From NCBI RefSeq assembly GCF_030684315.1, contig NC_081387.1, forward strand, positions 9,506,822-9,570,821: a DNA stretch of 64,000 bases. Reading direction: 5' to 3'. The stretch is from Stegostoma tigrinum (taxonomy: Eukaryota). Shown here one piece after another: positions 590 to 63,044 of the stretch (its first letter is position 1; each line of letters opens with the position of its first letter). The notes beneath the pieces are model-generated. The model was not told the DNA's origin. It did no database searches and saw only the letters and a list, made by a program, of their open reading frames with translations. A program made the position numbers and the translations under genes.

Positions 590-3069
590 CAAGTGTTTGT
601 GCAGAAACCGACGAGCTTTAGCATGAATCCCATTTCTCGAACAAAATAAGGTATCCATACAGCTTTGTCCCCGAAGAATCACAACCTGACCCAGGTAAAA
701 TGTACGAAATATGTTGACCACAAAAGCATAAAATTCCCAAAGACACTGAACAGTAAAATGATCTATTTCCTTTGGCTCTGCACTTCTGAGTTCCCGGACA
801 TCTTACTGCTTTTACGATCATGGAATCTCGTGCTACTTCTACCAGAAAGTAATACATGCCCTATGATCAATGAAATTAGTAGTAGAATCAGAGCGATTGG
901 GACATCTGAGGCAATAATATAGTGAAAGAGTTTAACTCTTAACCATGCTGGTGAATCCATAACATTTCGTGATGCAAAACAAAACAAAGGAACATTCCAA
1001 CTTCTGCATTGATCTACCAGCGTAACATGTCGTGTGAAGTCTTTCAGGTGGTTCAGTGCAGTCACTGTTCCTGTCGTGATACTTGCTGCCTTCTCGGTGC
1101 AGTATTGACTCCTCAGCTTTTAGTTTAAAAAAAGCCACAGATCAATCATAAGTGAGAATGACGGTGTAACAGTCAGAACAATCTGGGGTAGCATGAGACA
1201 GATCAGCATGAATATTACATGCGGGGATGAAGTACTGTAAAGCAAACTGCTTCTAATAATAAAATAGAAGGTGTCTTATTATGAGGTGGGTAATGACAAA
1301 AAGATCTGTCAAAAGCATAGTCATTGCATAATGTGTAATACACTTGGAGAAACTGAGCTTTCCCTGAATTAAGGTCATAATTGACATAATGTTAACTGCG
1401 AAAATAAGACATAAAGAGTGACGTTTAATTTAGACTGAAATTGAACTGAACACTTTCATGGCGTACTTAGAAAATTTTAACATTTTATACAGATACGCAC
1501 GCTTGTATGGAGAGGTGTGTGTGTAAAAGTGTCCAACAAATTAATGCATCACACATATATATGCATATATTTGGTGTTGCATGAATGTGTTCGACACTTT
1601 CACTCCTACTGACGTACATTTTGCATTTTGTCGTTGAAGAAGCAAATGGTCATTTCGGAAACTCCTTAATCTATTTAGACTAAAAGCTAAGTGTGTACAT
1701 ATATCCAGAACGACTTGCATTTACTTATAAGGCTGCATAGACAAATAAAGGTTGGTTTTACCTCACGCTGACAAGAACATCTCCCCTCACTATCGGTATC
1801 AAGCCGAATCATTATGCTGGAAGATGCGGTGTGTTTTGTGACCATGTGTAGAGCAATGCTTCTTCAATGACGAAATGCAAAATGTATGTCAGTAGGAGTG
1901 AAAATGTGTTCTGTGCCGCTGGTCAGATTCAAAACCACATCAGAATAAAGTTATGAAATTTTGCATACTTTGATTGGTCATGACCTATGCTTTGGTATTA
2001 TATTCAGAGCATTAATGAACTTTCACAAGCTGACATTGATCAATTAACAAACGGAAATGAAAAAATAAAGTTATTTAGACACAAGCGGTGTTTTCTTTCT
2101 TACAAGTGCCGTATCCTCCACAATCTGTTGCCTGATTGTGATGCCTTTCCAACTCATACATGTCAAGATCGTATTCGTTTCTATGACGTCATCACGTGTA
2201 ACGACAATGTAATGAAGAGATACTTCAATTCTGGGGAAACACGTTAGCACTGATGAAACTTAGAAGCTGGATAGCTGACAATGTGGTATATCACATTAAA
2301 ATTAGGCAGTGTTAGGAGGTCGCCAATCTGATAAGCCAAGACAATGCCTGAGGTTCTGAATCACAAATATTGCAATGTAGATATGAAAATTATCAGCGCC
2401 AATTACTGCACAAAATTATCTCTAGCTGATGGATTTAATCATTTCATTTTGGTAGCTGTGGGCTGGAATCTCCAAACACTTATGACATGTGATTTTAGAA
2501 GTTCCAAAGCAGACATCAGCCATACAAGCAAGTCCAAAGCAGAAGTCAGCACACAGTAATGGCAAAGAAGATTTTAAAGTGTGATGTTCGAGGTACATTT
2601 GGCCCTTCCAGAACTCTCTTCCTCCATTAACCATGGGGCCAAGATTTTCAGCTGTCTTTGATAAAGCTTTAAGTTTCCTGTAATTAAACCATTCTAAATC
2701 ACTGTTGAAATGAGGATTTCATTATATGCAAACAGCTGATTTGGATTTCTGAATTCTGCTCTGACTTCACAAAGATTTTAATTTTCATCAGAAGCCTTTG
2801 GAGTGAATACATGGTGAAATAGAGGATTTTGAACTCAGACTTCACAATTTTTTTGTGCAAATCAAGTGTAATTGAAACATGAGTTCTTTTGAAACACCGT
2901 CAAAATATGGTAGTAGTTGAACGCCTCAATAAAATGATGAGAACAGTAATGTAGGGGTGCATAGTTCATAGCATAAAGAAAACTTACCAGGAATGTCGAT
3001 GGCAGTAAGCAGAGAATAGTATATCTTTTCAATATCAACAAAGAAGTGATGTGTCTGCCACTGATCCAT
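590..3069 (-). pseudogene. GPR139-like pseudogene A (exon 1 3069-2988, exon 2 1395-~590)
   Basis: Exon 1 reads MDQWQTHHFFVDIEKIYYSLLTAIDIP-G|gtaagt (phase 1). The acceptor tcttattttcgcag leads into VNIMSIMTLIQGKLSFSKCITHY...DCSDCYTVILTYD*...KLRSQYCTEK...NVPLFC...EVQSQRK*IILLFSVFGNFMLLW...GFMLKLVGFCTNTW, collinear with the intact gene. Stops at 1253-1255, 1142-1144 (Arg of the DR motif), 763-765 and 679-681; frameshift near 1130. Confidence 0.9.
1598..1903. repeat. 47-bp inverted repeat (arms 1598-1644 and 1857-1903)
   Basis: tttcactcctactgacgtacattttgcattttgtcgttgaagaagca versus the reverse complement of 1857-1903: 3 mismatches. Confidence 0.9.
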
Positions 3070-22219: not shown

Positions 22220-22523
22220 TAGCTCATGATATTACTTTGGGTTGCAGTAGAGTCTGGCAGTCTCCACAGCACTTTTTTTTTCAGTGCGAAATTCACTCTA
22301 TGTGGAAGCATCGCTTATTCATGAAAGAAAAAAAAATTATGTGCATGAACTGTTTAGCATCTAGTATTTACAAATTAATCACACTGCAACTATTTTTTAA
22401 AAAATAGTTCATCCTCTTATTTTGCCTACAAATCTACATATAGAGAAACCTTACCTTGTCTACCTGAATCCTGTAATATGTCATCAGTAAATTTCAGCCT
22501 TTTTTTTCTTGTCCCTCTTACAG

Positions 22524-23434
22524 TTAATTTAGTTGCAATTTTAATCTTATCCCGGGGAAAGTGCGGCCTTTCGAAATGCACGACGTACTACCTCGTCGCT
22601 ATGGCAACCACGGATCTACTGGTCATTACCACTGCAGTCATATTTGAGAAGATAAATACTTATTATTTTCCAGGATCATTCCTGGATATCACTCCCATAT
22701 GCAGTGTTATCTTCGTCCTTTGCTATGTAGCCACAGACTGTTCTGTTTGGTTCACTGTCACTTTCTCCTTTGATCGATTTGTGGCCATCTGTTGCCAGAA
22801 GCTGAAAGGAAAATATTGCTCAGAGAAAACAGTCACCGTGGTTCTTGCAACAACCTGCATTTTGCTCTGTTTAAAAAATATCCCCTGGTACTTTGCAGTT
22901 GAATCAAAAGAGTTAATTGACAATATACCTTTTTTCTGCAATATAAAACCAAGCTATTATACTGATCCAGGCTGGGTGGGGTATAATTGTGTTGATAAGG
23001 CATTAACTCCATTGCTCCCATATATTTTTATTCTGTTATTCAATGCTCTTACAGTAAGACACATATTCGTTACTAGTCGCGTCCGTAAGAACCTCAGGAG
23101 CCAAAGAAAATGTGACAATCACAGTGATCCAGAGATGGAAAGCAGAAGGAAATCTGTGATCTTACTGTTCACCATATCTGGTAGCTTCGTACTCTTGTGG
23201 CTGTTATACCTTGTGGAATTCTTTCTGTATATCATTACTGGAATGAATCCCGAGTATTACAATCATTCTTTATGTATATTTGCAAATGTTGCAATTATGA
23301 CGCTGAATTTAAACTGCTGTACAAACGCATTTATTTATGGGGTAACTCAGTCCAGGTTCAGAGAGCAATTCAAAAGTGCTGTTAAATATCCTGTCATATT
23401 AATTATTCGAAATCTTAATAAACACAACAACTGA
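22524..23434 (+). CDS. GPR139-like class A GPCR, coding exon 2 (spliced product 324 aa)
   Basis: Polypyrimidine acceptor ...ctcttacag; open 7TM frame with YYLVAMATTDLL, FDRFVAIC, LLPYIFILLFN, SVILLFTISGSF and CTNAFIYG; stop at 23432-23434. Confidence 0.93.
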
Positions 23435-26959: not shown

Positions 26960-28005
26960 TTCAAGGACAATAATATCATGCAAGTGGTAGTGTTGGACAA
27001 GCGAATGGAGCTAAAGAAGACCAAATCTCCTGGCTCCGATGGGATGCATCCCAGGGCACTAAAAGAGATAGTGAGAGAAATAGCAAATGAGCTTGAGGTA
27101 ATTTTTCAAAGTTCCTTGGACTGTGGGGCAGTTCCAGCAGACTGGAGACAGTAAATATGACATAGAGATAACACGGTGTTGAGCTGGATGAATACAGCAG
27201 ACCAAGCAGCATCAGGGGAGCAGGAAAACTGACATTTCAGATCTGGGCTTCTTCTGAAGGAGGGTCCAGATCCAAAACATTAGCTTTCCTGCTCCTCTGA
27301 TGCAGCTTGGCCTGCTGTGTTCATCCAGCTCTAGACCTTGTCATCTCAGATTCTCCAGCATCGGTAGTTCCTACTATCTCTGAAGCAAGTGTGATGCCAC
27401 TGTTTTAAAACATAAGTTAGTTAAAAGGATGGAGAGTTATAGACTGGATAGTTTAAAATATGTAGTAGGGAAAATGCCTGAATCTGCCATCAAGGAAGAA
27501 ATAACAAGACATCGAGACACAAATTGTGCCATTGGGAAGATGCAACATGGGTTTGGGAAGGGCATATCATGTTTACATAGTTTAGGAAAATTTTGCGAAG
27601 ACATTATGAACATGGTGTAAAACGGGGTAAAACGGAGATGTGGTAAATCAAGATTTCCGAAAGATATTCAAAAAGTTGTTACACAAAGGGCTGTTGTATC
27701 AGTTAATAGTGTACAGCGTTACAAGCAATTTATTAGCATGGACAGATGATTGGTGAACTAACAGAATGCAAAGAGTGGGGATAAGTGATCAGTGACTAGT
27801 GGCGTGCCTCAGCGATCACTTTTGAGCCAACAATTGTTCACAATTTGCATAAATGACTTGGAGTTGGAGACTATGTGTAGTGTGTGAAACTTTACAGATG
27901 ACGCTAAGATGAGTCATGGACCAAAGTGTGCAGAGGACTATGGAAGTTTGCACAGGGAAATAGATTATTTCAGTGAATGAGCAAATGACTGACAGATGTG
28001 GATAA
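26960..28005 (+). mobile_element. Old CR1 RT fragment hosting two later insertions
   Basis: KSPGSDGMHPRALKE..VPADWR and QHGF remnants; continues at ~31863 (tattttggtagg). Confidence 0.75.
27163..27382. mobile_element. Palindromic Penelope-terminus-derived element
   Basis: Inverted arms ~27165-27250 and ~27255-27347, homologous to the Penelope terminus at 22090-22219; decayed hammerhead core in the centre. Confidence 0.75.
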
Positions 28006-31000
28006 ATAGAACATAGAACATAGAACATTACAGCACAGTACAGGCCCTTCGGCCCTCGATGTTGTGCCGACCTGTCATACTGATCTCAAGCCCATCTAAC
28101 CTCCACTATTCCATGTAGGTCCATATGCTTGTCCAATGATGACTTAAATGTACCTAAAGTTGGATAATCTACTACGGTTGCAGGCAAAGAGTTCCATTCC
28201 CTTACGACTGTCTGAGTAAAGAAGCTACCTCTGACATCTCTCCTATATCTTTCGCCACTCAATTTAAAGCTATGCCCCCTTGTGCTCGCCATCACCATCC
28301 TAGGAAAAAGGCTCTCCCTATCCACCCTATCTAACCATCTGATTATTTTATATGTTTCAATTAAGTCACCTCTCAACCTTCTTCTCTCCAATGAAAACAG
28401 CCTCAAGTCCCTCAGTCTTTCCTCGTAAGACTTTCCCTCCATACCAGGCGACATCCTAGTAAATCTCCTCTGCACCCTTTCCAAAGCTTCCACATCTTTC
28501 TTATAATGCGGTGACCAGAACTGTACGCAATACTCCAAGTGCGGCCGCACCAGAGTTTTGTACAGCTTCACCATAACCTCTTGGTTCTGGAACTCGATCT
28601 CTCTATTAATAAAAACTAAAACACTGTACACCTTCTTAACAGCCCTGTCAACCTGGGTGGCAACTTTCAAGGATCTGTGTACATGGACACCGAGATCTCT
28701 CTGCTCATCTACACTGCTAAGAATCTTACAATTAGCCCTGTACTTTGCCTTCCGGTTACTCCTACCAAACTGCATCACCTCACACTTGTCTGCATTAAAC
28801 TCCACTTGCCAACTCTCAGCCCAGCTCTGCAGCTTATCTATGTCTCTCTGCAACTTACAGCAGCCTTCGTCACTATCCACAACTCCACCGACCTTAGTGT
28901 CATCTGCAAATTTACTAACCCATCCTTCTACGCCCTCATCCAGGTCATTTATAAAAATGACAAACAGCAGTGGACCCAACACCGACCCTTGCGGTACACC
29001 ACTAGTAACTGGTCTCCAGGATGAACATTTCCCATCAACTACCACCCTCTGTCTTCTTTCAGCAAGCCAATTTCCGATCCAAACTGCTATATCTCCCACA
29101 ATTCCATTCCTCCGCATTTTGGACAATAGCCTACTGTGGGGAACCTTATCGAACGCCTTGCTGAAACCCATATACACCACATCAACCGGTTTACTCTCAT
29201 CTACCTGTTTTGTCACCTTCTCAAAGAACTCAATAAGGTTAGTGAGGCCCTTCCCTTCACAAAACCGTGCTGACTATTCCCAATCAATTTATTCTTTTCT
29301 AGATGAAGATAAATCCTATGTCTTATAACCTTTTCCAACACTTTACCAACAACTGAGGTAAGGCTCACTGGTCTATAATTACCAGGGTTGTCTCTACTCC
29401 CCTTCTTGAACAGGGGAACCACATTTGCTATCCTCCAGTCATCTGGCACTATTCCTGTAGACAATGATGAGTTAAAGATCAATGCCAAAGGCTCGGCAAT
29501 CTCCGCCCTGGCTTCCCAGAGGATCCGAGGATAAATCCCATCTGGCCCAGGGGACTTATCTATCTTCACCCTCTGAAAGATTTCTAATACCTCTTCTGTG
29601 CGAACCTCAATCCCACCTAGTCTAGTAGCCTGTATCTCAGTATTCTCCTCGACAACATTGTCACTTTCTAGAGTGAATACTGTTGAAAAATATTCATTTA
29701 GCAATTTCCCTATCTCATCTGACTCCACACACAACTTACCACTACTATCCTTGATTGGGCCTAATCTTACTTTCGTCATTCTTTTATTCCTTAAATACCT
29801 ATAGAAAGCCTTAGGGTTTACCCTGATCCTATCCACCAACAACTTCTCATGTTTCCTCCTGGCTCTTCTGAGCTCTCTCTTTAGGTCTTTCCGGGCTACC
29901 TCGTAGCCCTCAAGTGCCCTAACTGAGCCTTCACATCTCATCCTAACATAAGCCTTCTTCTTCCTCTTGACCAGCGATTCCAGCTCCTTAGTAAACCATG
30001 TCTCCCGCGCTCTACATCTTCCTCCCTGCCTGACAGGTACACATTTATCTAGGACACACAGGAGCTTTTCCCTGAATAAGCTCCACATTTCTAATGTGCC
30101 CATCCCCTGCAGTTTCCTTCCCCATTCTATGCTCCCTAAATCTTGCCTAATCTCATCATAATTGCCTTTCCCCCAGCTATAACTCTTGCCCAGTGGTATA
30201 CACCTATCCCTTTCCATTACTAAAGTAAACATAACAGAATTGTGATTGCTATCACCAAAGTGCTCACCTACTTCCAAATCTAACACCTGGCCAGGCTCAT
30301 TACCCAGTACCAAATCTAATGTGACTTCGCCCCTTGTTGGCCTATCTACATACTGTGTCAGGAAGTCCTCCTGTACGCTCTGGACAAAAACTGACCCATC
30401 TATAGCACTCGAACTATAGTGTTCCCAGTCAATATCTGGAAAGTTGAAGGCCCCCATGACAACTACCCTGCTTCTCTCACTCCTATCGAGAATCATCTTT
30501 GCTATCCTTTCCTCTACATCTCTGGAACTATTCAGAGGCCGATAGAAAACTCCCAACAGGGTGACCTCTCCTTTCCTGTTTCTAACCTCAGCCCATACTA
30601 CCTCAGTTGACGAGTCCCCAAACATCCTTTCTGCAACTGTAATACTGTCCTTGACCAACAATGCCACACCTCCACCCCTTTTACCATCTTCTCTGTTCTT
30701 ACTGAAACATCTAAATTCCGGAACCTGCAACAACCATTCCTGTCCCTGCTCTATCCATGTCTCCGAAATGGCCACAACATCAAAGTCCCAGGTACCAACC
30801 CATGCTGCACGTTCACCCACCTTATTCCGGATGCTCCTGGCTTTGAAGTAGACACACTTCAATCCAACTTCTTGCTTGCCGGTGCCATCTTGCTTCCCTG
30901 AAACTTTATTTCAAACCACCCTACTCTCAACATTTTCTACAGTTGAACTACAATGTTGGTGCCCATCCCCCTGCTGAATTAATTTAATCCCACCCGAACT

Positions 31001-31862
31001 GCTTTAGCAAATTCCCCCCCCCCCCCCCCCCCACGATATTGGTACCCCTCTGGTTCAGGTGAAGACCATCTTGCTTGTAGAGGTCCCACCTACCCCAGAA
31101 ACAGCCCCAATTATCCAAGAATCCAAAACCCTCCCTCCTGCACCATCCCTGTAGCCACGTGTTCAACTCCTCTCTCTCCCTATTCCTCACCTCACTCGCA
31201 CGTGGCACGGGCAACAAACCAGAGACAACAACTCTTTTCATCCTAGCTCTCAGCTTCCATCCTAGCTCCCTGAATTTCTGCCTTAAGTCCCCGTCTCTCT
31301 TCCCACCTATGTCATTGGTGCCAATATGGACCACGACTTGGGGCTGCTCCCCGTCCCCCTTCAGGATCCCAAAACACGATCAGAGACATCATGCACCCTG
31401 GCACCTGGGAGGCAACACACCAACCGTGAGTCTTTCTCGTCCCCACAGAACCTCCTATCTGTCCCCCTAACTATGGAGTCCCCAATGACTAATGCTCTGC
31501 TCCTCTTTCCCCTTTCCTTCTGAGCAGCAGGGACAGACTGTGTGCCAGAGACTTGTGCCCCACTGCTTTCCACGGTAAGTTGTCCCCCTCCAACAGTATC
31601 CAAAACGGTATACTTATTGTTGAGGGGAATGGCCACAGGGGATCCCTGCACTGATTGCCGGTTCCCTTTCCATCCCCTGACCGTAACCCATCTGCCTTTT
31701 TCCTGTACTTGAGGAGTGACTACCTCCTGTAACTCCTCTCAATAACCCCCTCTGCCTCCCAAATGATCCGAAGTTCATCCAGCTCCAGCTCCAGTTCCCT
31801 AACGCGGTTTTCAAGGAGCTGGAGTTGGGTGCACTTCCCGCAGATGTAGTCAGCAGGGACAC
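28006..31862 (-). mobile_element. Young, near full-length CR1 (HER1-type) LINE: ORF1 zinc finger/leucine zipper plus SGNH esterase; ORF2 APE endonuclease plus RT
   Basis: ORF1 pieces YICGKC..LELEL, VIGDS, HIGTND, DGLHLN. ORF2 30862->28086 with [20 protein letters not shown], broken by a 4-nt deletion near 29248 relative to the 54.3 kb copy. (GTTCTAT)n tail at 28006. Confidence 0.95.
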
Positions 31863-32104
31863 TATTTTGGTAGGAATACAAAAGAAAATGATGAATATTT
31901 GAGTGAGGGAAAGTGCAAGTCGGCGAGCAAGGAAGGGGAATTGAGAGTATTTCAGTAAGGGAGAAGGAAAATTCTGGAAGTGAGAGGTAGAGTGAAAGTT
32001 ATTGAGTGAGGAAGGAGTGAGAGTCAGTGACTGATGGCGTGGACTGAGAGTTTCTCACTCTCTCTCTCGATTCCTGCACTGACGGCTCTTCCTCTCTCCC
32101 TCAG

Positions 32105-32364
32105 ATGCTCCTCTTGTGTCCTTTAGCCATCTGGGTAATCCTAACTGGCTCTCCTTTCCCGTCGCTTGTTTATCCTCAAGTTATTGAAGTGATTCTGTGC
32201 AGGGGCAAATATTGATTGATGGGAGTCTGTTTATTGGGATTTTACCTAATCATGACAGGACCTACCAGATTCGGAAATAGATAGAGTTTGATTCAAAGCA
32301 TCAGCCAAGTATTCCTCTCAGTTTGAGCACAGCAGCCTGGATGTGCAGGTGGTGGTGATTTATG
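32105..32364 (+). pseudogene. MHC class I alpha3 (Ig C1) exon, pseudogenised
   Basis: Acceptor ctctctccctcag then, across frameshifts, APLVSFSHLGNPNWLSF..YPQVIEVIL..LIDGSLFIGILPNHDRTYQIRK*IEFD..KYSSQFEHSSL..VVIY. PNxDxTYQ and YxCxxEHSSL are class I alpha3 signatures. Both Cys are lost and the donor is GT>AT. Confidence 0.88.
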
Positions 32365-32559
32365 ATAACACTCTTTCTCACTGTCAGAGAGGAAACCAGA
32401 CTCAAACCTGGATCGTGGACCAGTGCTGAGCTGATTCACCAGAAAATGTTAAGGATGGAAATAGAGGAGAGAAATAGATGTTACTGTTCAGTATGTCATA
32501 GTTGTCACAATGTTCCTGGAGGAATATGATCAAAAAAGATTTATGCTATGATGCTATGA

Positions 32560-33003
32560 CATGACAATATCTAATATAGCCTTGGAATTTAACATCCAGG
32601 ACCTGGTATGTCCTCAGATGCTGCAGTATGAACGAATATAATATGCAGAGGAATGTCTCAGAACATTATGGCACATATATCATGGCGTGTTGGGTTATGT
32701 CAGGACCCAGTTTACTCCAGGCTATTGTGTTACATTACCTTGCGGAACCTGGGATATCAAAATATGACAGGGCACAGTGTCACTTGAACTTATATATTAC
32801 AATTTCAACCTGGGAGGTCAGAATATGAATCGACCCAGTGTAGCCTGCAATATTACGTTATGACAGTACTTGATGTAACCTGGAATATTAGTGAATGACA
32901 GGACCTCATTGTAGCTTGGAACATTTTTCGTTATGACAATACTGAGTGTTACCTTAGATATAACAGCATGATAGTACAATTGTAGCTTGGAATATTACTA
33001 TAC
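32560..33003. repeat. Degenerate ~35-bp minisatellite
   Basis: Recurrent atgacag...tgtagc(c/t)tggaatatta units. Confidence 0.55.
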
Positions 33004-33221
33004 AGCAGTTAGCAGCACCACAACAGACTACAGAATAGATAAATCATTGACAAATCAACTTCCCACACAAACAAATGTGACACAGTGCAATTTGGCAGGA
33101 AAAACAGAGAAGCCACTCCTTCGCTTCAGGAAGGTGTTGCGTTGGTAGGTCAGAAACAAAAAGATTTCAAAGTACAAAGGGATTAACCATTTAAAATTGT
33201 ATAAAATCCAGATCATACATC

Positions 33222-34915
33222 GACCATGGAACTGTACAGAACAATACAAACCCTTTGGTTCACGATGTTGTGCCGACATGTAATCTTATGAAGATCAAAC
33301 TACCCTGTACACATTACATTATACTATCATCAATATGCCAATCTAAGAGTCGCTTAACTGTCTCTAAAGTATCTGACTCCACCACCACTGACAGTAGAGC
33401 ACTCCACACACCCACCAATATTTGTGTGAAGAAACTACCTCTGACAACTCCCCTACACCTTCCTAAAATCATCTTAAAATTATTAACCCTAAGAATAATC
33501 GTTTCCGCCCTGGGAAAAATGTCTCTGGCTATCCACTCTATCTATGCCTCTCATCATCTTGTACAACTCTTTCAAGTCATCTCTCATCATTCTTCGCTCC
33601 AATGAAGAAATCCCGAGCTTCCTCACCTTTTCCTTGTAAGACCTGCCCTCCAGTACAGGCGCCATCCTGGTAAATCTCTCTGCACACTTGCTGAAGCTTT
33701 CACATCCTTCCTACAATGAGGTGACCAGAACTGAACACAATATTCCTAGTGAGGTCTAACCAGGGTTTAATAGAGCTGAAGCATATCCTCATGGCTCTTA
33801 AACTCAATTCCCCTACAAATGGAAGCCTACACAACAAGCACCTTATTTACAACCTTATCAACTTGGGTAGCAACTTTGAGGGATCTATGGATGTGGACCC
33901 CATGTTTCCTCTGTTCCTCAACACTGCCAAGAATCCTGCTATTAACCCTGTATTCTGCATTCAAATTCGACCTAACAAAATGAATCACTTCACACTTTTA
34001 TGGGTTGAATTACATCTGCGACTTCTTTGCTTAACTCTGCATCCTATCAATGTGCCATTGCAAACTACAACAGCACTCCACTCTATTCAAAACTCCATCA
34101 ACATTTGTGCCATCAGCAAATGTAATAACCCACGCTTCTACTAACTCTTTCAAACATTTATAAAGATCACAAAGAGCAGATGCCCCAGCACAGGTCCCTG
34201 TGGAACACCACTCATCACCAAGCTCTAGCACTGAATGCGTTCCATCTACTACGATCCTCTGTCTTCCAGTGGATGGCCAGTTTTGTATCCAGACAGCCAA
34301 ATTTCCCTGAATCTCATGCCTCCTTACTTTATGAATTATCCTACTATGGGGAACCTTATCAAATGCCTTGCTAAAATCTACACACTCCACATCCACTGCT
34401 ATGCTTTCATCATTGTGTTTTGTCACATTCTCAAAGAATTCAATGAGGCTTTGTGAGGCATGACCTGCCCCTCACAAAGCCATACTGACTGTTCATAATC
34501 AGACTGTGCATATCCAAATAATCATAATCACTATCTCTCAGGATCCTCTCCAATGTTTTGACCACTGCAGAAATAAGGCTGACTTGTCTGCAATTCCCAA
34601 GATTTCCCTATTCCCTTTCTTGAACAAGAAAATGGCAGTTTCCACCCTCCATTCATCTGGTATTACTCCAGTGGACAGCGAGGACACGAAGATCATCATC
34701 AAAGGGGCAGCAGTCTCTTCCTTCACTCCCCGTAGAAACCTTGGGTTTATCATGTTTGGTCTCAGGGGCTTGTCTATCCTCATGATCTTCTTCAAAATTT
34801 CTAGCATATCCTCCTTCCTGATATCAACCTGTTCTAGCATATCTTTCTATTTCATACTGGCCTCACAAACACCAGGCCCCTCTCATTGGTGAATACTGAA
34901 ACAAAGTATTCATTA
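33222..34915 (-). mobile_element. CR1 LINE 3' part, intermediate age
   Basis: VDFSKAFDKVPH..FADG and IPDEWRVE..FKKGNR remnants, with a 3' tail at ~33222. Confidence 0.88.
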
Positions 34916-34919
34916 ATCA

Positions 34920-35470
34920 CAACATAGTGTGGAAAATCAATTACTGAATCCTATTTCTAGAGCAATAGAATTGTAAACCATGGACAGTTATGTTCGGCCT
35001 GTATGAAACCTTTGTTAAATAACATTTGGAGCGCTGATTATTTCTGGTCACTGATTTATCAAAATGTTTTTGCAGGCAGTGAAGAAGTGCAAGGAGGATT
35101 CATGAAGGTCATCTAGAAATAATTGGATTGCATATGCGATATGTTTGACAGACTGGGCCTCATTTTTCTCTCAGAAAAGAACGGTAGAAAAGATGATCTA
35201 AGATAGATCAGGAATGTTATGGAGGTTTGGAGAAAGTGGTACAAGGAAACAATTTCATCTTTGTGGAGAAGAGCATGACTAGAGACCATCAATATCAGAT
35301 AGTGACCAAGAAATGCATAAGGGAATTCAGGGGGATCTTATTCACTTCAAATTTGGCACAAATGTGGAAGTCATCAAAGCAGAGGAGTGGTTGAAGAGAA
35401 ACTGTAGAGATTAAAGGTATATGGAAACACTAGTTGTGCTAAATGGTCTGTTTCTGTGCAATGTATTTTC
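34920..35470 (+). mobile_element. Old CR1 3' fragment
   Basis: Degenerate RT C-terminus and tail aaatggtctgtttctgtgc. Confidence 0.55.
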
Positions 35471-35519
35471 TACAGTCCATGTTATTTCAGTCTCTCTATA
35501 TCTTGCTCCCTCATTTTCT

Positions 35520-36200
35520 TTTGTTTGTTCATGTGCTATGGTTGCTGCTGGGACAACTTTCACTGCCCACCCATAGCTGCCATTGACAATGTGCTAGTGA
35601 GCTACCATCTTGCAACACTGCAGGGCGTATGGTGTAGAGGAGCTCCAGCCTTTGAATGCACCCAAATTGAAGGAGCAGTGATGTATCAATGGTTTGAAGG
35701 GCAACTTGCAGGTGGTGGTATTCTTATGTATTTCTTCCTTTGTCATTTTACATGACTGTGGTTGTGGATTTAATTTTCTATGGAGTCTTAGAGAAATTCT
35801 GTAGTACATCTTTTAGATAGTACACACTGCTGCAAGTGAGTTTCGGTGGTTGAGGGAATGGATGCTTGTTGACATTTTGCCAGTGAAGCAGGATGCTTTG
35901 ACCTGGATGTCAAGCTTATTGAGAATTGTTGGAGCTGCACCAGAAAAATCGAGAGGCAGTCCATCACACATCTGGGTTACATTGTGGACAGTTTTTGAAG
36001 AACCAGGGTGTGAGTTATTCAGTGCTGAATTCTGAGCCTCTGATTTTGCTCTTTCCCCCAATGTATCTACCTGTTTGTTCATTTAGTTCAGTTTCTGATT
36101 AATGGCATAGTCAAGAATGTTGATAATGGAAGATTCAATAATGAAAATAAAATTGAGTATCAAGAAGTGATGTTCAGACTCTCTCTTGTTGGAGGTGGTC
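35520..36200 (-). mobile_element. LINE fragment of the same family as 45725-48057
   Basis: PLDFSGAAPTILNKLDIQVKA resembles PLAWICVASTTLKKLDTVQDK at 47.6 kb. Confidence 0.7.
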
Positions 36201-36438
36201 CTTACATGGTCCTTTTTCTCACAATCTGTCCTTCTTTATGTCATTCTTCGTTGTCTTTCTCATTGTCACTGTATCTTGTAAAGTCTCTCCTCTCTCCTTC
36301 TCTTGCTTTGAGTCTCCATCACCCTCTTGATATGATTATTTCATTCTTATTTACTCTCTCTCCCTTTCTCTCTTTTGATCTCATTCTCTTGTTTTCGCTT
36401 TCTCCTTCATTCTCTTTCTGGCTATCTATCTTTATCTG

Positions 36439-36520
36439 CCTCTCTCTCTCTCTCTCTCTCTCTCACTCACACACACACAAACACACACACACACACTCAC
36501 TCATTCACTCACTCACTCTT
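36439..36520. repeat. (CT)n(CA)n(CACT)n compound microsatellite
   Basis: Directly visible. Confidence 0.9.
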
Positions 36521-36528
36521 CACAACAG

Positions 36529-38364
36529 ATCAGATGTCTTACTCACAGATTGTTGTCTACATTGGATCGTTCTCGGGATCGTTGTGTTCATAACTCCCAG
36601 CATTGTGGCTCTCAGAATCTGCACCAAGAATTGTACAAACTGGTATGGAAAATAGTCGCTCCAAAGGGGATGTCAGGATTTGGGTAGGAGCCAGGGACCT
36701 AGCCCAAAATGAGGGGAACAGCTGGGTACATTTGTGGAGTGACTCTAAGTGAGGGTGAAACTCAATGCTTTTGGGGAAGGATCTGAGTTTGTGGAAGAAT
36801 ACTGAAGAAAGGGTATTCATCTCGGTCAGGTGCTGAGTGTCAGGGTATGGGTGTCGGGCGCCAGGTTAGCTAGGGAACACACAGAACGAGTCGAATTGTG
36901 TACCGAGGCTTCATGGTGGACCTACAGATTACCAGATTTGGGAAAGGCTCAGACTTGGGGGCTGGGGGGGGGGGGTGCGTTAGCAATGGGTTGAGAGGTT
37001 CAGGTCCGGCTAAGGATGCGGATTTTGAGGTTCATCAGGAACATCTCAGTGGAGTGCTTTTTCCGCTTTTTACTCGCACTTCCAGCCTCCATTCTTCTTG
37101 ATTCAGTCAGTCTCTCGTCACTCATTGAACTTTTTTTTCCTTTCACAGTGAAAGGGAACAGCAGCAACAATCCCGCAAACCGTAAGCTGATCATCAATTG
37201 AAGACATATGTTTCAACATGTGAATCATTGTTCATTCTGTAAAGGGGCTTGTGTGATTGCGTTTTTACGTCTGTGCGTGTCTCTCTTTTCTGTCTTGTTA
37301 TGTCCATCCGTCTCTGCAACAGCATTTTTCTTTCGTCTCCTTTCTCCATTTCTCTCTCACTTCCTCTGTCTGACTTTGTGCTTCATGTTCTGCCTCTGTC
37401 TCTGTCTGATCAAGCACAGTCTTTTGATGCATCTCTTTCCGATATCAGCTTCTGACAAAGAGGAATGCTCAGGGTCTGAGTTACGAGTAGTGTTGATTCG
37501 CAATGGATGCAAATCGTTCTGATGGGTGTGGTGTAATTTTCTTTATTGTACAATCTGGCAGAGTTAATATGTGCTCATTGTAGGATGCTCCTTGCGTAGA
37601 ACTTTGAAATCAGCTCATGAAATTCCACACCCAATTTTAAAACTGGCAGTCAGGAGATGGTTATTCCTCGCCTGAGAATTGCCTTGCTTCATCGGGTTGT
37701 TTGTGAGATGTTCATCCCTGCTGTTGCCGAAATCTTCGCAAAAGTTAGAGTTTTTTTTAAAAAATGATTTGAAAGATGCAATTTTCAGACACAGATTAAC
37801 GAGGGGGGCGGGAAGGGGGGAGAAACGAAGCAGGTTTCTGTAGTTAATAAGAAATTGCTATTTGTGACAGGTCATTATATTCTAACTACAGGCAGTCAGT
37901 TGGACTGAATTGAGTACACCCTACAAATTTAACCTGTAAACCCCGATAAAGATTCCCTATACACACAGACAGATATACAAACATAAACGGGGGTTGGGCC
38001 TGGGCGGTGGGAGGAAGACGCCCATGGAAGTAATGAAAACCGGAAAAAAACAGCTCTTTTTCCCAAGACCTGTTAGGGTGTTTTTTTTTGCCGAGCTTTG
38101 ATCCAATGATTCTTGTCCAGCTTCCTTTCTCAGAGTGCTTCCACCGGGTGGAAGAGGGACAAAGTGGTGTTTTCACTTATCCAATCAAAGTTACAACTTG
38201 TAACATCTGCTGGAAGAAACATGAACTTTTTTCAGCTTTAATTTGGCTTACTACAGGGAGCAGAGAGAGAGAGAGAGAGTTCTTGGCTGCTAAATTGCTG
38301 CTCTGGTCTGACTAGTTTCTCTGTCTTATTTACAGCCCAAGATATTCACCCACCTAATAACTAG
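36529..38364 (+). pseudogene. MHC class I-like TM exon (36529-36642), 33-nt cytoplasmic exon (37149-37181), next cytoplasmic exon (37449-~37472) and possible last exon (38336-38364)
   Basis: AG/GT-bounded TM exon QIVVYIG/IVLGIVVFITPSIVALRIC (frameshifted); ttttcctttcacag|..KGNSSNNPAN|gtaagc; ccgatatcag|..SDKEECS. Exon order and phase fit class I gene architecture. The last exon is weakly supported. Confidence 0.7.
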
Positions 38365-39639: not shown

Positions 39640-40464
39640 AACGAAGTGGAAACGCTGGTAATATCTCTTCCCGTTGACTTGCTTTGAAAAATTGGAGAGT
39701 CATTCCATGTAAAATGTATTTGAACAGCAGTGTAACTATATCGCGACAACTGCGCCTCATCCGGAAATGTGTGGAGAATCATTGAAATATTCAGGCTTAA
39801 TTCCTGTCGTGATATGACATAAAATCCGAAAGCAACAGGAACGTGAAGCTGCCGGATGTAGTGGAGACTACATTTACAGACATCCTTCTGCTCTCCATCT
39901 TTGTTCTGACGCCTGAGTCCCTTATGGACTGAAAAGGTCCCAAAAAAATGTGAATGATAGAGCTGGCAGCAACTGAATTAAAGCATGGGAAATAGTGATA
40001 TTGAAATCTTATTAAAGCAATGAAAAGCCAACCATGCAGAATTTATATAATAAATGTGACTTGAAATTACAGAACAAGTGAATAGTATAAAATAATTTCT
40101 CTGCATTCAGTTGTAATTTAAACGATCTTTCAAACTAAGCAGAATGCTTTATCACTTGAACGCACAGTTTCAGTGGGCTTGCTGAAAAGTTTTACTTTCA
40201 GCTTGTTGGAATGAATTGCTATGAAATGATGAAATGAGAAATGATAGAGAACCAGTAAGATGTTATAAGGCTGCATATTGTAGTCCAAAGGGATCACTAG
40301 GCCCTGGTACGATGTTCATTTAAGATACTGGGAAGTACTGAGGACAGCTCTGATTCAGTAAAACCGCAGAACACGTGGACAGTATATATGCTGTTACCAT
40401 ATGGTGAAGAACATCTAGTGCCCATTGAAACGTGTTTTTGCAAAACATAAGAATTGAATGCATC
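39640..40464 (-). pseudogene. GPR139-like exon 2 remnant (pseudogene D)
   Basis: Minus-strand pieces SFHHFIAIHSNKLKVK, LFCNFKS..SAWLAFHCFNK, MESRRMSV..TSGSF and TGIKPEYFNDS..LHCCSNTF are collinear with the intact gene; many stops and frameshifts. Confidence 0.82.
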
Positions 40465-61649: not shown

Positions 61650-63044
61650 ATGGTGAAATTAATTGCGATGAATGAGACTTTCAGTCAGAGAACAGACACG
61701 CTTACTTCTGAAAGAGGCAGTTTTTACCGATCTGTCAAAATGGTCACTATTGCGATTGTGACAGGATCTTTAAGTTTGGTGACCATTATTGGAAACATTC
61801 TAGTCCTGCTTTCTGTGCAAGTAAACAGACATTTACGAACTATTAACAACTATTTTATTTGCAGCTTGGCTTGCGCTGATTTGATTCTCGGGGCATTTTC
61901 CATGAATCTATATACAATATACACTGTGACTGGGTATTGGCCATTGAGTCCATTGGTGTGTGAGTTCTGGCTTGCTGTCGATCACATTGCTACTACCGCG
62001 TCTGGAATGAACCTCCTTCTCATCAGCTTTGACCGTTATTTCTGCGTAACAAGACCCTTCAGTTACCCAATGAAAAGAACAAAAAAAATGTCAGGGATCA
62101 TGATTACAGCAGCGTGGGGGCTGTCTGTTGTCGTATGGTGTCCCGTTATTCTCGCCTGGCAGTTCACCGTTGGTGGCTGGGCAGTTAACGAGGGCGAGTG
62201 TTACGCACAATTCTTCTCAGATCCAGTCGTTTCTTTTGGCATTTCAATAGCCGCCTTCTTTCTCCCCGTTGCCATCATGGTGGGTTTATATGTGCGCATA
62301 TCTCAAGCCAGCAGGAATCCAATGAAGGATGATGAAACAGAATATAAAACAAGCAAAGGCACGACTCCTCCCAGTTCAGCGAGAGACAAAGTCGTGGACC
62401 CGAAATGTAACAAAATCTTAAACAATTCTCGCGGGCTGATCCACATCGGAAAGCAAAGTGGTAAAATACCTTTTGAAATAACAGTCGCGAAGGAGTTTTC
62501 AGATGATTTAACTTCACTCAACCTGTCCCCTACAAACCAAATTAAGGAAGGGAAAATACAAGGAGGAACTGTGCTCCCTGGTATACGATGCACAACAGAC
62601 AATGACAATCTCTCTGACTTCAAGGTAATTAGTTTGTCTCAAAAATGTGACAACTGTGATCACACATTAGTTTGCAAGCAAGGCGGTGTTGACCAGAATG
62701 GCGATGAAAATCTTATCAGAGGCGTTCGTGGGATCATTGAAATGACCAAGGCTATTGCTAAAAAGAAGAGGGGAACTGTAACGCGCAAAAAGGCAGTGAC
62801 TAGGACTGTCCTGGCCATTCTGTTAGCATTTATCATCACCTGGATCCCATATAGTTTCATGGTCCTCACAAACACTTTCTGTCCAATCTGTATCCCCAAC
62901 ACAGCCTGGACAATTGCATATTGGATCTGTTACATCAACAGCACTATCAATCCAGCCTGCTACGCCCTGTGTAATCAAACCTTCAAGAAAACGTTCAAGA
63001 ATCTTCTTGTCTGTCAGTGCAAGAATATTAGAGCATCGAGATAA
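61650..63044 (+). CDS. chrm2-like: Muscarinic acetylcholine receptor M2-like, divergent paralog (intronless CDS; ATG at 61650 or 61668)
   Basis: GSLSLVTIIGNILV, NNYFICSLACADL, SFDRYFCVTRP, ECYAQFFS (M2-type Phe in ECL2), VTRTVLAIL, CYINSTINPACY, and a C-terminus KNIRASR like M2 KNIGATR. Confidence 0.95.
   Translation: MVKLIAMNETFSQRTDTLTSERGSFYRSVKMVTIAIVTGSLSLVTIIGNILVLLSVQVNRHLRTINNYFICSLACADLILGAFSMNLYTIYTVTGYWPLSPLVCEFWLAVDHIATTASGMNLLLISFDRYFCVTRPFSYPMKRTKKMSGIMITAAWGLSVVVWCPVILAWQFTVGGWAVNEGECYAQFFSDPVVSFGISIAAFFLPVAIMVGLYVRISQASRNPMKDDETEYKTSKGTTPPSSARDKVVDPKCNKILNNSRGLIHIGKQSGKIPFEITVAKEFSDDLTSLNLSPTNQIKEGKIQGGTVLPGIRCTTDNDNLSDFKVISLSQKCDNCDHTLVCKQGGVDQNGDENLIRGVRGIIEMTKAIAKKKRGTVTRKKAVTRTVLAILLAFIITWIPYSFMVLTNTFCPICIPNTAWTIAYWICYINSTINPACYALCNQTFKKTFKNLLVCQCKNIRASR

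What the first reader, a model, noticed from the sequence alone, without database searches (positions are those of the whole stretch)
32105..38364. Decapitated MHC class I pseudogene embedded in the GPCR cluster
Seen: an alpha3-like exon (ILPNHDRTYQIRK, EHSSL), a TM exon, a 33-nt phase 1-1 cytoplasmic exon and an SDKEE exon, in the correct order, none evident from the ORF track. No convincing leader, alpha1 or alpha2 exons were found; CR1 insertions occupy the upstream region. Known: class I genes have this exon layout, including a 33-nt cytoplasmic exon, and mammalian extended class I regions are linked to olfactory receptor clusters. Inference: this locus may be MHC-linked or a dispersed class I cluster, which would be a shark parallel of MHC-chemoreceptor linkage.
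Basis: partly seen in the sequence, partly recalled or inferred. Interest (0 to 1): 0.74.

Follow-up and report, generated by a model that had tools for sequence, protein, structure and literature searches.

The report
Dead shark MHC gene among receptors
This is the broken back half of a known shark immune-display (MHC class I) gene lying on the shark's MHC chromosome, which is ordinary; its neighbours are not smell receptors of the known kind, but include a run of 17 altered acetylcholine-receptor copies whose changed binding pockets would suit other, untested ligands.

Summary
Observation confirmed. Four class I exons (alpha3 32105-32364, TM 36529-36632, 33-nt cytoplasmic 37149-37181, last coding exon 37449-37480) match four intact paralogues 1.1-1.6 Mb away; leader, alpha1 and alpha2 are absent from 464 kb scanned. 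It is a long-dead relic of the nonclassical UBA lineage (75% DNA identity to UBA-type genes, 61% to UAA) on the zebra shark MHC contig (UAA, TAP-like, PSMB, class II beta, B2M, UDA, UEA, C4-like). MHC linkage of shark class Ib genes is already published. The young CR1 did not kill it: it is nested in an older CR1 that is cut and joined to intron 3, which points to a deletion. The olfactory-receptor parallel fails as stated: neighbours are GPR139-like genes spread over at least 20 contigs, and CHRM2-derived genes. By-product worth follow-up: 17 full-length CHRM2-like copies (16 open) at 9.38-10.96 Mb, interleaved with UBA genes, keep the amine-binding aspartate but change pocket residues twice as often as other invariant sites; seven other sharks carry such copies on their class I chromosome. 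I found no paper on this array. The scan earlier noted the GPR139-like family many times, and an M2-like neighbour in another shark.

The parts
32105..32364 (+). Relic alpha3 (C1-set) exon of a UBA-lineage class I gene: 260 nt against 264; three frameshifting deletions, a TAG stop at 32278, both Ig cysteines lost, donor GT changed to AT
36529..36632 (+). Relic connecting-peptide/TM exon: 104 nt against 105 (frameshift), weak donor GTACAA
   Evidence: (E 2.8e-15)
37149..37181 (+). 33-nt phase 1-1 cytoplasmic exon, AG and GTAAGC splice sites intact
   Evidence: (E 1.1e-11)
37449..37480 (+). Relic last coding exon (SDKEE): 32 nt against 39, original stop out of frame, donor GT changed to TT; similarity runs on to about 37650
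   Evidence: (E 9.3e-6)
31903..32104 (+). Remnant of the intron between alpha2 and alpha3 (purine-rich, low complexity), joined directly to the cut end of the old CR1; inferred deletion breakpoint near 31903
   Evidence: scores 53-82 against introns of 3 of 4 paralogues, 0 of 300 shuffles reach each; the fourth not significant
28008..31864 (-). Young, 5'-truncated CR1 LINE, 95-96% identical to 39 other scored copies; inserted into the older CR1 with loss of about 13 target bases
27400..31903 (+). Older CR1 fragment (27400 or earlier to 28007, resuming 31865-31903), about 71% identical to kin, lacking its 3' end
22478..23434 (+). Open GPR139-like class A GPCR (main coding exon), member of a large dispersed shark family
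61650..63044 (+). Open CHRM2-derived receptor, one of 17 full-length copies on this contig; 7 of 15 orthosteric pocket residues changed, D3.32 kept

Best explanation
The locus is a dead, unprocessed 3' half (alpha3, TM, two cytoplasmic exons) of a nonclassical MHC class I gene of the shark UBA type on the MHC chromosome, likely a stray duplicate whose leader, alpha1 and alpha2 exons were likely removed by a deletion ending in intron 3. Shown: the exons, their lesions, the absence of 5' exons in 464 kb, the MHC context, and the nesting of a young CR1 in an older one. Inferred: (1) birth by duplication from the UBA cluster 1.1-1.6 Mb away; (2) long neutral decay, since first and second codon positions differ from intact paralogues at about 20% each; (3) a deletion with one end inside the old CR1 (about 31903) and the other in intron 3; (4) later insertion of the young CR1, which played no part in the gene's death. 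It makes no class I protein: no groove exons, no open frame, no Ig disulfide. It sits among GPCR genes because this part of the shark MHC holds several families that duplicate and decay side by side, not because class I and receptor genes were copied as one unit.
For: Lineage: relic alpha3 differs from the four intact paralogues at 64-65 of 260 sites (75% identity) against 159 of 260 identical (61%) to the contig's UAA gene. The paralogue alpha3 finds only class I proteins of sharks and rays (72 of 72 hits), among them AAC60347, which PMC10751288's supplement labels Gcirratum_UBA. The read-through (X at breaks) falls among carpet-shark UBA-type sequences in a 52-row tree, on a long branch and without starred support. 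Death: differences by codon position 17/16-19/28-31 against 1-4/1-6/3-17 between intact paralogues; no frame stays open when the four exons are read as they stand. Context: 36 of 36 MHC_I groove hits of the genome lie on this contig; UAA 1.09 Mb, TAP-like exons 1.17 and 1.22 Mb, proteasome-beta exons 1.24 and 1.27 Mb, class II beta 5.05 Mb, B2M 5.45 Mb, UEA/UDA/UFA/UGA types 5.5-7.1 Mb, intact UBA types 10.67-11.15 Mb, thioester-domain (C4-like) exons 11.44 and 12.02 Mb. Deletion: the flanks of the young CR1 join up as one older CR1, which stops at about 31903 and gives way to intron-3-like DNA. No cassette: the window's GPR139-like gene is not sister to those beside the nearest intact UBA gene.
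Against: The alpha3 tree does not hold the relic in any starred clade, and UBA versus a lost UAA-derived side lineage cannot be told without alpha1/alpha2. The intron-3 match is in low-complexity purine-rich DNA and was not significant for 1 of 4 paralogues. The continuation of the old CR1 across the young one was clear for 1 of 4 kin copies (0 of 200 shuffles), marginal for one (7 of 200), not significant for two; BLAST found 0 of 11 hits spanning the joint. Intron similarity does not single out one parent gene. A partial duplication that never carried the 5' exons would leave the same junction. The interval 9.77-10.61 Mb was not scanned with the DNA exon profiles.
Confidence: 0.88

Rival explanations
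1. The relic was born headless: a partial (3'-half) segmental duplication or transposition from the UBA cluster landed in or next to an old CR1, so no deletion happened in place.
For: The junction near 31903 joins unrelated DNA; near-neutral divergence fits a copy dead from birth; the site is 1.1 Mb from the nearest intact gene.
Against: Third positions still differ more (28-31) than first and second (16-19), which fits some time under selection, although part of that excess lies on the paralogue branches. A second class I relic 107 kb downstream keeps a leader and last exon, suggesting whole genes once lay here.
Confidence: 0.3
2. The young CR1 (28008-31864) decapitated the gene when it inserted.
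For: It lies only 240 bases upstream of alpha3.
Against: Both its flanks belong to one older CR1 with only about 13 bases lost; it is 4-5% from its sister copies whereas the relic is about 20% off at replacement sites.
Confidence: 0.04
3. The remnant is used: a truncated membrane peptide or regulatory RNA is spliced from the surviving exons.
For: All four acceptors and the 33-nt exon's donor are intact.
Against: Alpha3 donor and last-exon donor are destroyed, every frame is interrupted, both cysteines are gone.
Confidence: 0.04
4. The class I relic marks a true shark counterpart of the mammalian MHC-linked olfactory receptor cluster, with the surrounding GPCRs acting as chemoreceptors.
For: GPCR arrays do interleave with class Ib genes here and in the sawfish MHC (10 consecutive GPR139-like genes between two class Ib groups). 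The CHRM2-derived array is MHC-centred (18 of 23 hits) with changed pockets.
Against: No OR, TAAR, V1R or V2R family match for the two open receptors; GPR139-like genes are spread over at least 20 contigs; the shark olfactory repertoire is reported as V2R-dominated (PMC6368271 abstract); no expression data were seen; the families are not homologous to mammalian ORs beyond class A.
Confidence: 0.15

Closest known systems
Shark nonclassical class I lineage UBA (nurse shark AAC60347; multicopy cluster described in PMC10751288)
   Same: Exon sizes and phases (264/105/33/39 nt in intact copies), alpha3 sequence (NHDRTYQIRK, F/I-EFD motif region), place on the MHC chromosome near C4-like genes and away from the class Ia region.
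   Different: No leader, alpha1 or alpha2; all remaining coding exons but one are damaged; lies 1.1 Mb from the intact UBA cluster.
Truncated class I gene fragments of vertebrate MHCs (e.g. HLA fragment pseudogenes; recalled, not from a call)
   Same: Birth-and-death debris, unprocessed, retroelement-rich, within the MHC.
   Different: Shark UBA lineage; neighbours are GPCR arrays.
MHC-linked olfactory receptor clusters of the mammalian extended class I region (recalled)
   Same: A multicopy class A GPCR array with pseudogenes interleaved with class Ib genes.
   Different: Receptors are GPR139-like and CHRM2-derived, not OR family; chemosensory expression untested; independent origin.
Muscarinic receptor M2 (CHRM2; PDB 6U1N, 4MQS)
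   Same: Best solved-structure match of the window's 61650-63044 gene (E 4e-150); intronless core; D3.32, Y6.51, Y7.43 kept in 17 of 17 array copies.
   Different: 17 copies in tandem on the MHC contig besides the ordinary copy on C22; 1-8 of 15 pocket residues changed per copy, where the 14 canonical M2 rows and the C20 gene change none.

Membership tests
MHC class I heavy-chain gene | C1-set alpha3 exon homologous to class I rather than to class II, B2M or Ig | tested here: met
   75% DNA identity to intact class I alpha3 exons; their protein hits class I only (72 of 72), best PDB match 6LUP
MHC class I heavy-chain gene | Downstream TM, 33-nt and last cytoplasmic exons in order | tested here: met
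MHC class I heavy-chain gene | Leader, alpha1 and alpha2 (groove) exons | tested here: not met
   none for this gene in 464 kb; spike-ins found 33 of 33
MHC class I heavy-chain gene | Open frame and Ig-domain disulfide | tested here: not met
   frameshifts, stop, both cysteines lost: a relic, not a working member
Shark UBA lineage | alpha3 closer to UBA than to UAA, UDA, UEA, UFA, UGA | tested here: met
   75% against 61% for UAA; DNA search finds only the four UBA-type paralogues; tree placement among UBA types without starred support
Shark UBA lineage | Groove residues that separate UBA from classical UAA | not testable with these tools
   the exons are missing
Shark UBA lineage | On the MHC chromosome, apart from the class Ia region and the UDA/UEA cluster, near C4 | tested here: met
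   against PMC10751288; RXRB not searched; C4 identity rests on a thioester-domain profile only
Processed pseudogene | Introns absent | tested here: not met
   three introns with splice sites and intron similarity to paralogues
MHC-linked olfactory receptor cluster | Receptors belong to the OR family | tested here: not met
   Pfam 7tm_1 only (plus Srsx, which ordinary M2 proteins also carry); names and PDB matches are GPR139 and CHRM2
MHC-linked olfactory receptor cluster | Expression in olfactory neurons | not testable with these tools
   no expression data reached; catshark sensory-organ supplement unreadable
Muscarinic acetylcholine receptor (for the array) | Invariant orthosteric pocket (15 sites, list recalled) | tested here: not met
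   0 of 17 array copies keep all 15; window copy changes 7
Muscarinic acetylcholine receptor (for the array) | Activation by acetylcholine, Gi/o coupling | not testable with these tools
   needs an assay

The most novel reading that the evidence does not exclude
The class Ib region of galeomorph sharks carries an undescribed receptor family derived from CHRM2 that kept the cation-binding half of the pocket (D3.32, Y6.51, Y7.43 in 17 of 17) and rebuilt the acyl-facing half (A5.43 kept in 0, T5.42 in 4, N6.52 in 7 of 17), so that it senses other amines (for example choline, betaine, carnitine, TMAO-type osmolytes or biogenic amines) in a chemosensory or immune tissue: an independently evolved, MHC-linked amine-receptor array, with the class I relic as a marker of its shared history with UBA genes.
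Probability: 0.2. Interest if true: 0.75.

Novelty: new member of a known kind. Interest (0 to 1): 0.36.

Why it matters
The relic itself matters little: it extends the UBA region by about 1.1 Mb and agrees with the published rule that elasmobranch class I genes stay on the MHC chromosome. What would matter is its setting. Muscarinic receptors are a small, conserved family in the vertebrates studied (PMC6298421, abstract and passages; no cartilaginous fish term in its text), and sharks are described as poor in GPCR expansions (PMC8455134, passages). A 17-copy, mostly open, pocket-diversified CHRM2 offshoot inside the MHC class Ib region, seen on the class I chromosome of several shark orders, would be a new, directly testable case of a neurotransmitter receptor turned into a repertoire, and would show whether receptor arrays linked to the MHC arose more than once.

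Tried and rejected
1) Last bases of alpha2 at 31865-31900: looked plausible by eye, but the alpha2 exon alone scored at chance (56-70 of 300 shuffles reach it) and the stretch is the continuation of the older CR1. 2) An exon at 38336-38364: lies in a dispersed repeat. 3) alpha1/alpha2 at 23.5-28 kb: tblastn with 80 class I proteins and DNA profiles found nothing. 4) Class II beta1 profile PF00969 found nothing in the genome (0 of 7 candidates), which is uninformative; class II beta was recognised from its C1 exon instead. 5) Co-duplicated UBA + GPCR cassette: not supported by a quick 30-row tree. 6) Expression: no RNA holder listed; this is no evidence either way. The TM/cytoplasmic part was not checked against public runs. 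7) Monophyly of the CHRM2-like array: the careful tree did not finish; the quick tree leaves the base open. 8) Literature: searches for GPR139 with shark terms and for muscarinic/CHRM with shark terms listed no paper on either array; term look-ups in PMC10751288 main text, PMC10620051, PMC11979771, PMC8455134, PMC7677710 gave 0 for muscarinic or GPR139 where asked. Subscription papers are not searched, Almeida 2020/2021 and Bartl 1997 were not read, PMC10116579 did not load, and the supplement of PMC11979771, which may hold organ expression for these genes, could not be read.
Full report
Where it is. The window is G000:C44:9506822-9570821 on a 31,945,831-base contig. Proteins identical to genes on this contig are annotated as Stegostoma tigrinum, zebra shark.

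The observation. The alpha3-like exon is real: a DNA search of the genome returns the window and four paralogues at 10.69, 11.06, 11.11 and 11.15 Mb (75-77% identity; 5 of 5 candidates), each with an open alpha3 frame. These four are complete class I genes with leader, alpha1, alpha2, alpha3, TM and cytoplasmic exons. Profiles made from their exons find in the window alpha3 (E 1.4e-70), TM (2.8e-15), the 33-nt exon (1.1e-11) and the last coding exon (9.3e-6), in order on the + strand. Lesions: alpha3 has 260 instead of 264 bases (three frameshifts), a stop at 32278, no cysteines and an AT donor; the TM exon has 104 instead of 105 bases; the 33-nt exon is whole; the last coding exon has 32 instead of 39 bases and a TT donor. 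Leader, alpha1 and alpha2 were not found for this gene in the window, 200 kb upstream or 200 kb downstream; spiked decayed exons were recovered 33 of 33 times, and the leader profile found the leader of the one paralogue it was not built from (E 1e-17). The stretch 31835-33150 stands unchanged in contigs of 4 of 4 runs from at most 2 samples of 1 study.

Which lineage. The paralogue alpha3 retrieves 72 proteins, all class I of sharks and rays, including AAC60347 at 82%, labelled Gcirratum_UBA in the supplement of PMC10751288. The relic is 75% identical to the four UBA-type genes and 61% to the contig's UAA gene. In a 52-row alpha3 tree it falls among carpet-shark UBA-type rows on a long branch, in no starred clade. 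Lineage labels for the other genes on the contig were set by eye against the supplement's reference sequences; the set I call UEA matches the row that the supplement labels Gcirratum_UCA.

Is it MHC-linked. Yes. All 36 groove-domain hits in the genome are on C44. The contig has UAA at 1.09 Mb, TAP-like exons at 1.17 and 1.22 Mb (2 of 5 hits), proteasome-beta exons at 1.24 and 1.27 Mb, class II beta at 5.05 Mb, B2M at 5.45 Mb, the large class Ib cluster at 5.5-7.1 Mb, intact UBA-type genes at 10.67-11.15 Mb and thioester-domain exons at 11.44 and 12.02 Mb. This is the layout reported in PMC10751288: all class Ib genes on the MHC chromosome, with a UBA cluster apart from the UDA/UEA cluster and flanked by c4 (I read parts 1-3 of 7 of the main text and parts 1, 18 and 97 of 98 of the supplement). 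PMC12562908 (passages) describes UBA as an expanded family derived from UAA.

How it lost its head. The CR1 at 28008-31864 is 5'-truncated and 95-96% identical to 39 other scored copies. Its two flanks belong to one older CR1: a kin copy aligns across the insertion point with about 13 bases missing (0 of 200 shuffles for the best copy; 7, 35 and 110 of 200 for three others), though BLAST found no hit spanning the joint (0 of 11). The old CR1 stops near 31903 without its 3' end and is followed by DNA like intron 3 of three of four paralogues. LINE copies normally keep their 3' end (general knowledge), so I infer a deletion from inside the old CR1 to intron 3; a headless duplication landing there is the main rival. 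The relic differs from intact genes at 17, 16-19 and 28-31 sites in codon positions 1, 2, 3, against 1-4, 1-6 and 3-17 among the intact genes: it has decayed almost neutrally for far longer than the young CR1 has existed.

The neighbours. The open gene at 22478-23434 belongs to a family annotated as probable GPR139 (1900 hits; the listed ones from sharks and rays), with human GPR139 as best but weak PDB match (E 6e-9). Of 125 scored genomic hits, 30 are on C44 and the rest on 19 other contigs, so it is not an MHC-specific family. The sawfish MHC gene list has ten such genes in a row between two class Ib groups, so the interleaving is shared with a ray; the paper's main text does not mention it (0 hits for G-protein, GPR139, olfactory). 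The window's copy is not sister to the two copies beside the nearest intact UBA gene, which argues against a copied cassette. Neither open receptor matches an olfactory family in Pfam; the catshark repertoire is reported as V2R-dominated with 5-8 ORs, ORAs and TAARs (PMC6368271, abstract).

The by-product. The open gene at 61650-63044 is CHRM2-derived. Of 23 genomic hits, 18 lie on C44 between 9.38 and 10.96 Mb, 17 full-length and 16 of these without a stop; seven lie between intact UBA genes (10.74-10.96 Mb). At 15 orthosteric sites (list recalled, placed by motif) the 14 canonical M2 rows, including the zebra shark's own C22 copy, and the C20 gene show no change, while the array copies show 1-8 changes each. 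Among 193 sites invariant in those 15 rows, pocket cells changed in 88 of 255 against 550 of 3026 elsewhere; with 8 lineage representatives 36 of 120 against 230 of 1424 (Fisher p 3.5e-4; cells are not independent); per site, Mann-Whitney p 0.019. D3.32, Y6.51 and Y7.43 are kept in 17 of 17. Sawfish M2-like hits are on other contigs, and muscarinic does not occur in its MHC list; stingrays show a separate pocket-changed expansion on small scaffolds. The quick tree does not resolve the array as one clade. Four literature searches listed no paper on it. Tissue and ligands are unknown.

Verdict. The finding proper is an ordinary new pseudogene of a known lineage in its known region (about 0.15 on its own). 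The olfactory parallel is not supported as stated. The CHRM2-derived array lifts the overall score to 0.36; if it proves to be an amine-sensing repertoire (probability about 0.2) it would deserve about 0.75.

Noticed in passing
G000:C44:9380378-10963451 (window 61650-63044 is one member; another starts at window 89 on the - strand): Array of 17 full-length CHRM2-derived receptors, 16 open, with diversified orthosteric pockets, interleaved with GPR139-like and UBA genes; similar copies on the class I chromosome of seven other sharks by contig-length proxy.
   Followed up: partly
G000:C44:9646311-9646533 and 9654986-9655139 (107 kb beyond the relic, + strand): Second, hollowed-out class I-like relic: an apparently intact leader exon (E 0.0014) and a last coding exon (E 4e-9) 8.4 kb apart, with repeats but no alpha1-TM between.
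   Followed up: partly
window 736-1396 (-) and 39658-40409 (-): Decayed GPCR fragments, 26-38% identical to the GPR139-like protein.
   Followed up: no
L052 (G000:C44:7297107-7297241): Another frameshifted class I alpha3 exon, resembling the UAA-2-like genes at 1.4-1.7 Mb.
   Followed up: no
G000:C44:11128717-11128860 (between L016 and L017 region, + strand): Isolated UBA-type TM exon between two intact UBA genes, without a matching alpha3.
   Followed up: no
L056 (G000:C45:718626-718754): 3' part of a UAA-like alpha3 exon on a different contig (C45), the only class I-like C1 piece seen off C44; bears on the claim that no class I DNA lies outside the MHC chromosome, or on the assembly.
   Followed up: no
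L057, L058 (G000:C257): [quoted passage not shown]
   Followed up: no
genome-wide: One thioester-domain exon (profile positions 251-300) recurs at about 110 places, mostly small contigs and contig ends: an alpha-2-macroglobulin/complement-like exon carried in a repeat or a large gene family.
   Followed up: no
P0214, P0215, P0219, P0292, P0221, P0251, P0281: Stingrays (Hemitrygon, Hypanus) have a separate expansion from canonical CHRM2 with pocket changes at some of the same sites (N3.37, A5.43, N6.52): 24 of 105 pocket cells against 47 of 1243.
   Followed up: partly
L006-L008 (G000:C44:10672557-10690771): The UBA-type gene P0009 has an 18-kb intron between alpha1 and alpha2, against 0.2-0.6 kb in the other three, and a divergent groove.
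   Followed up: no
   Followed up: partly
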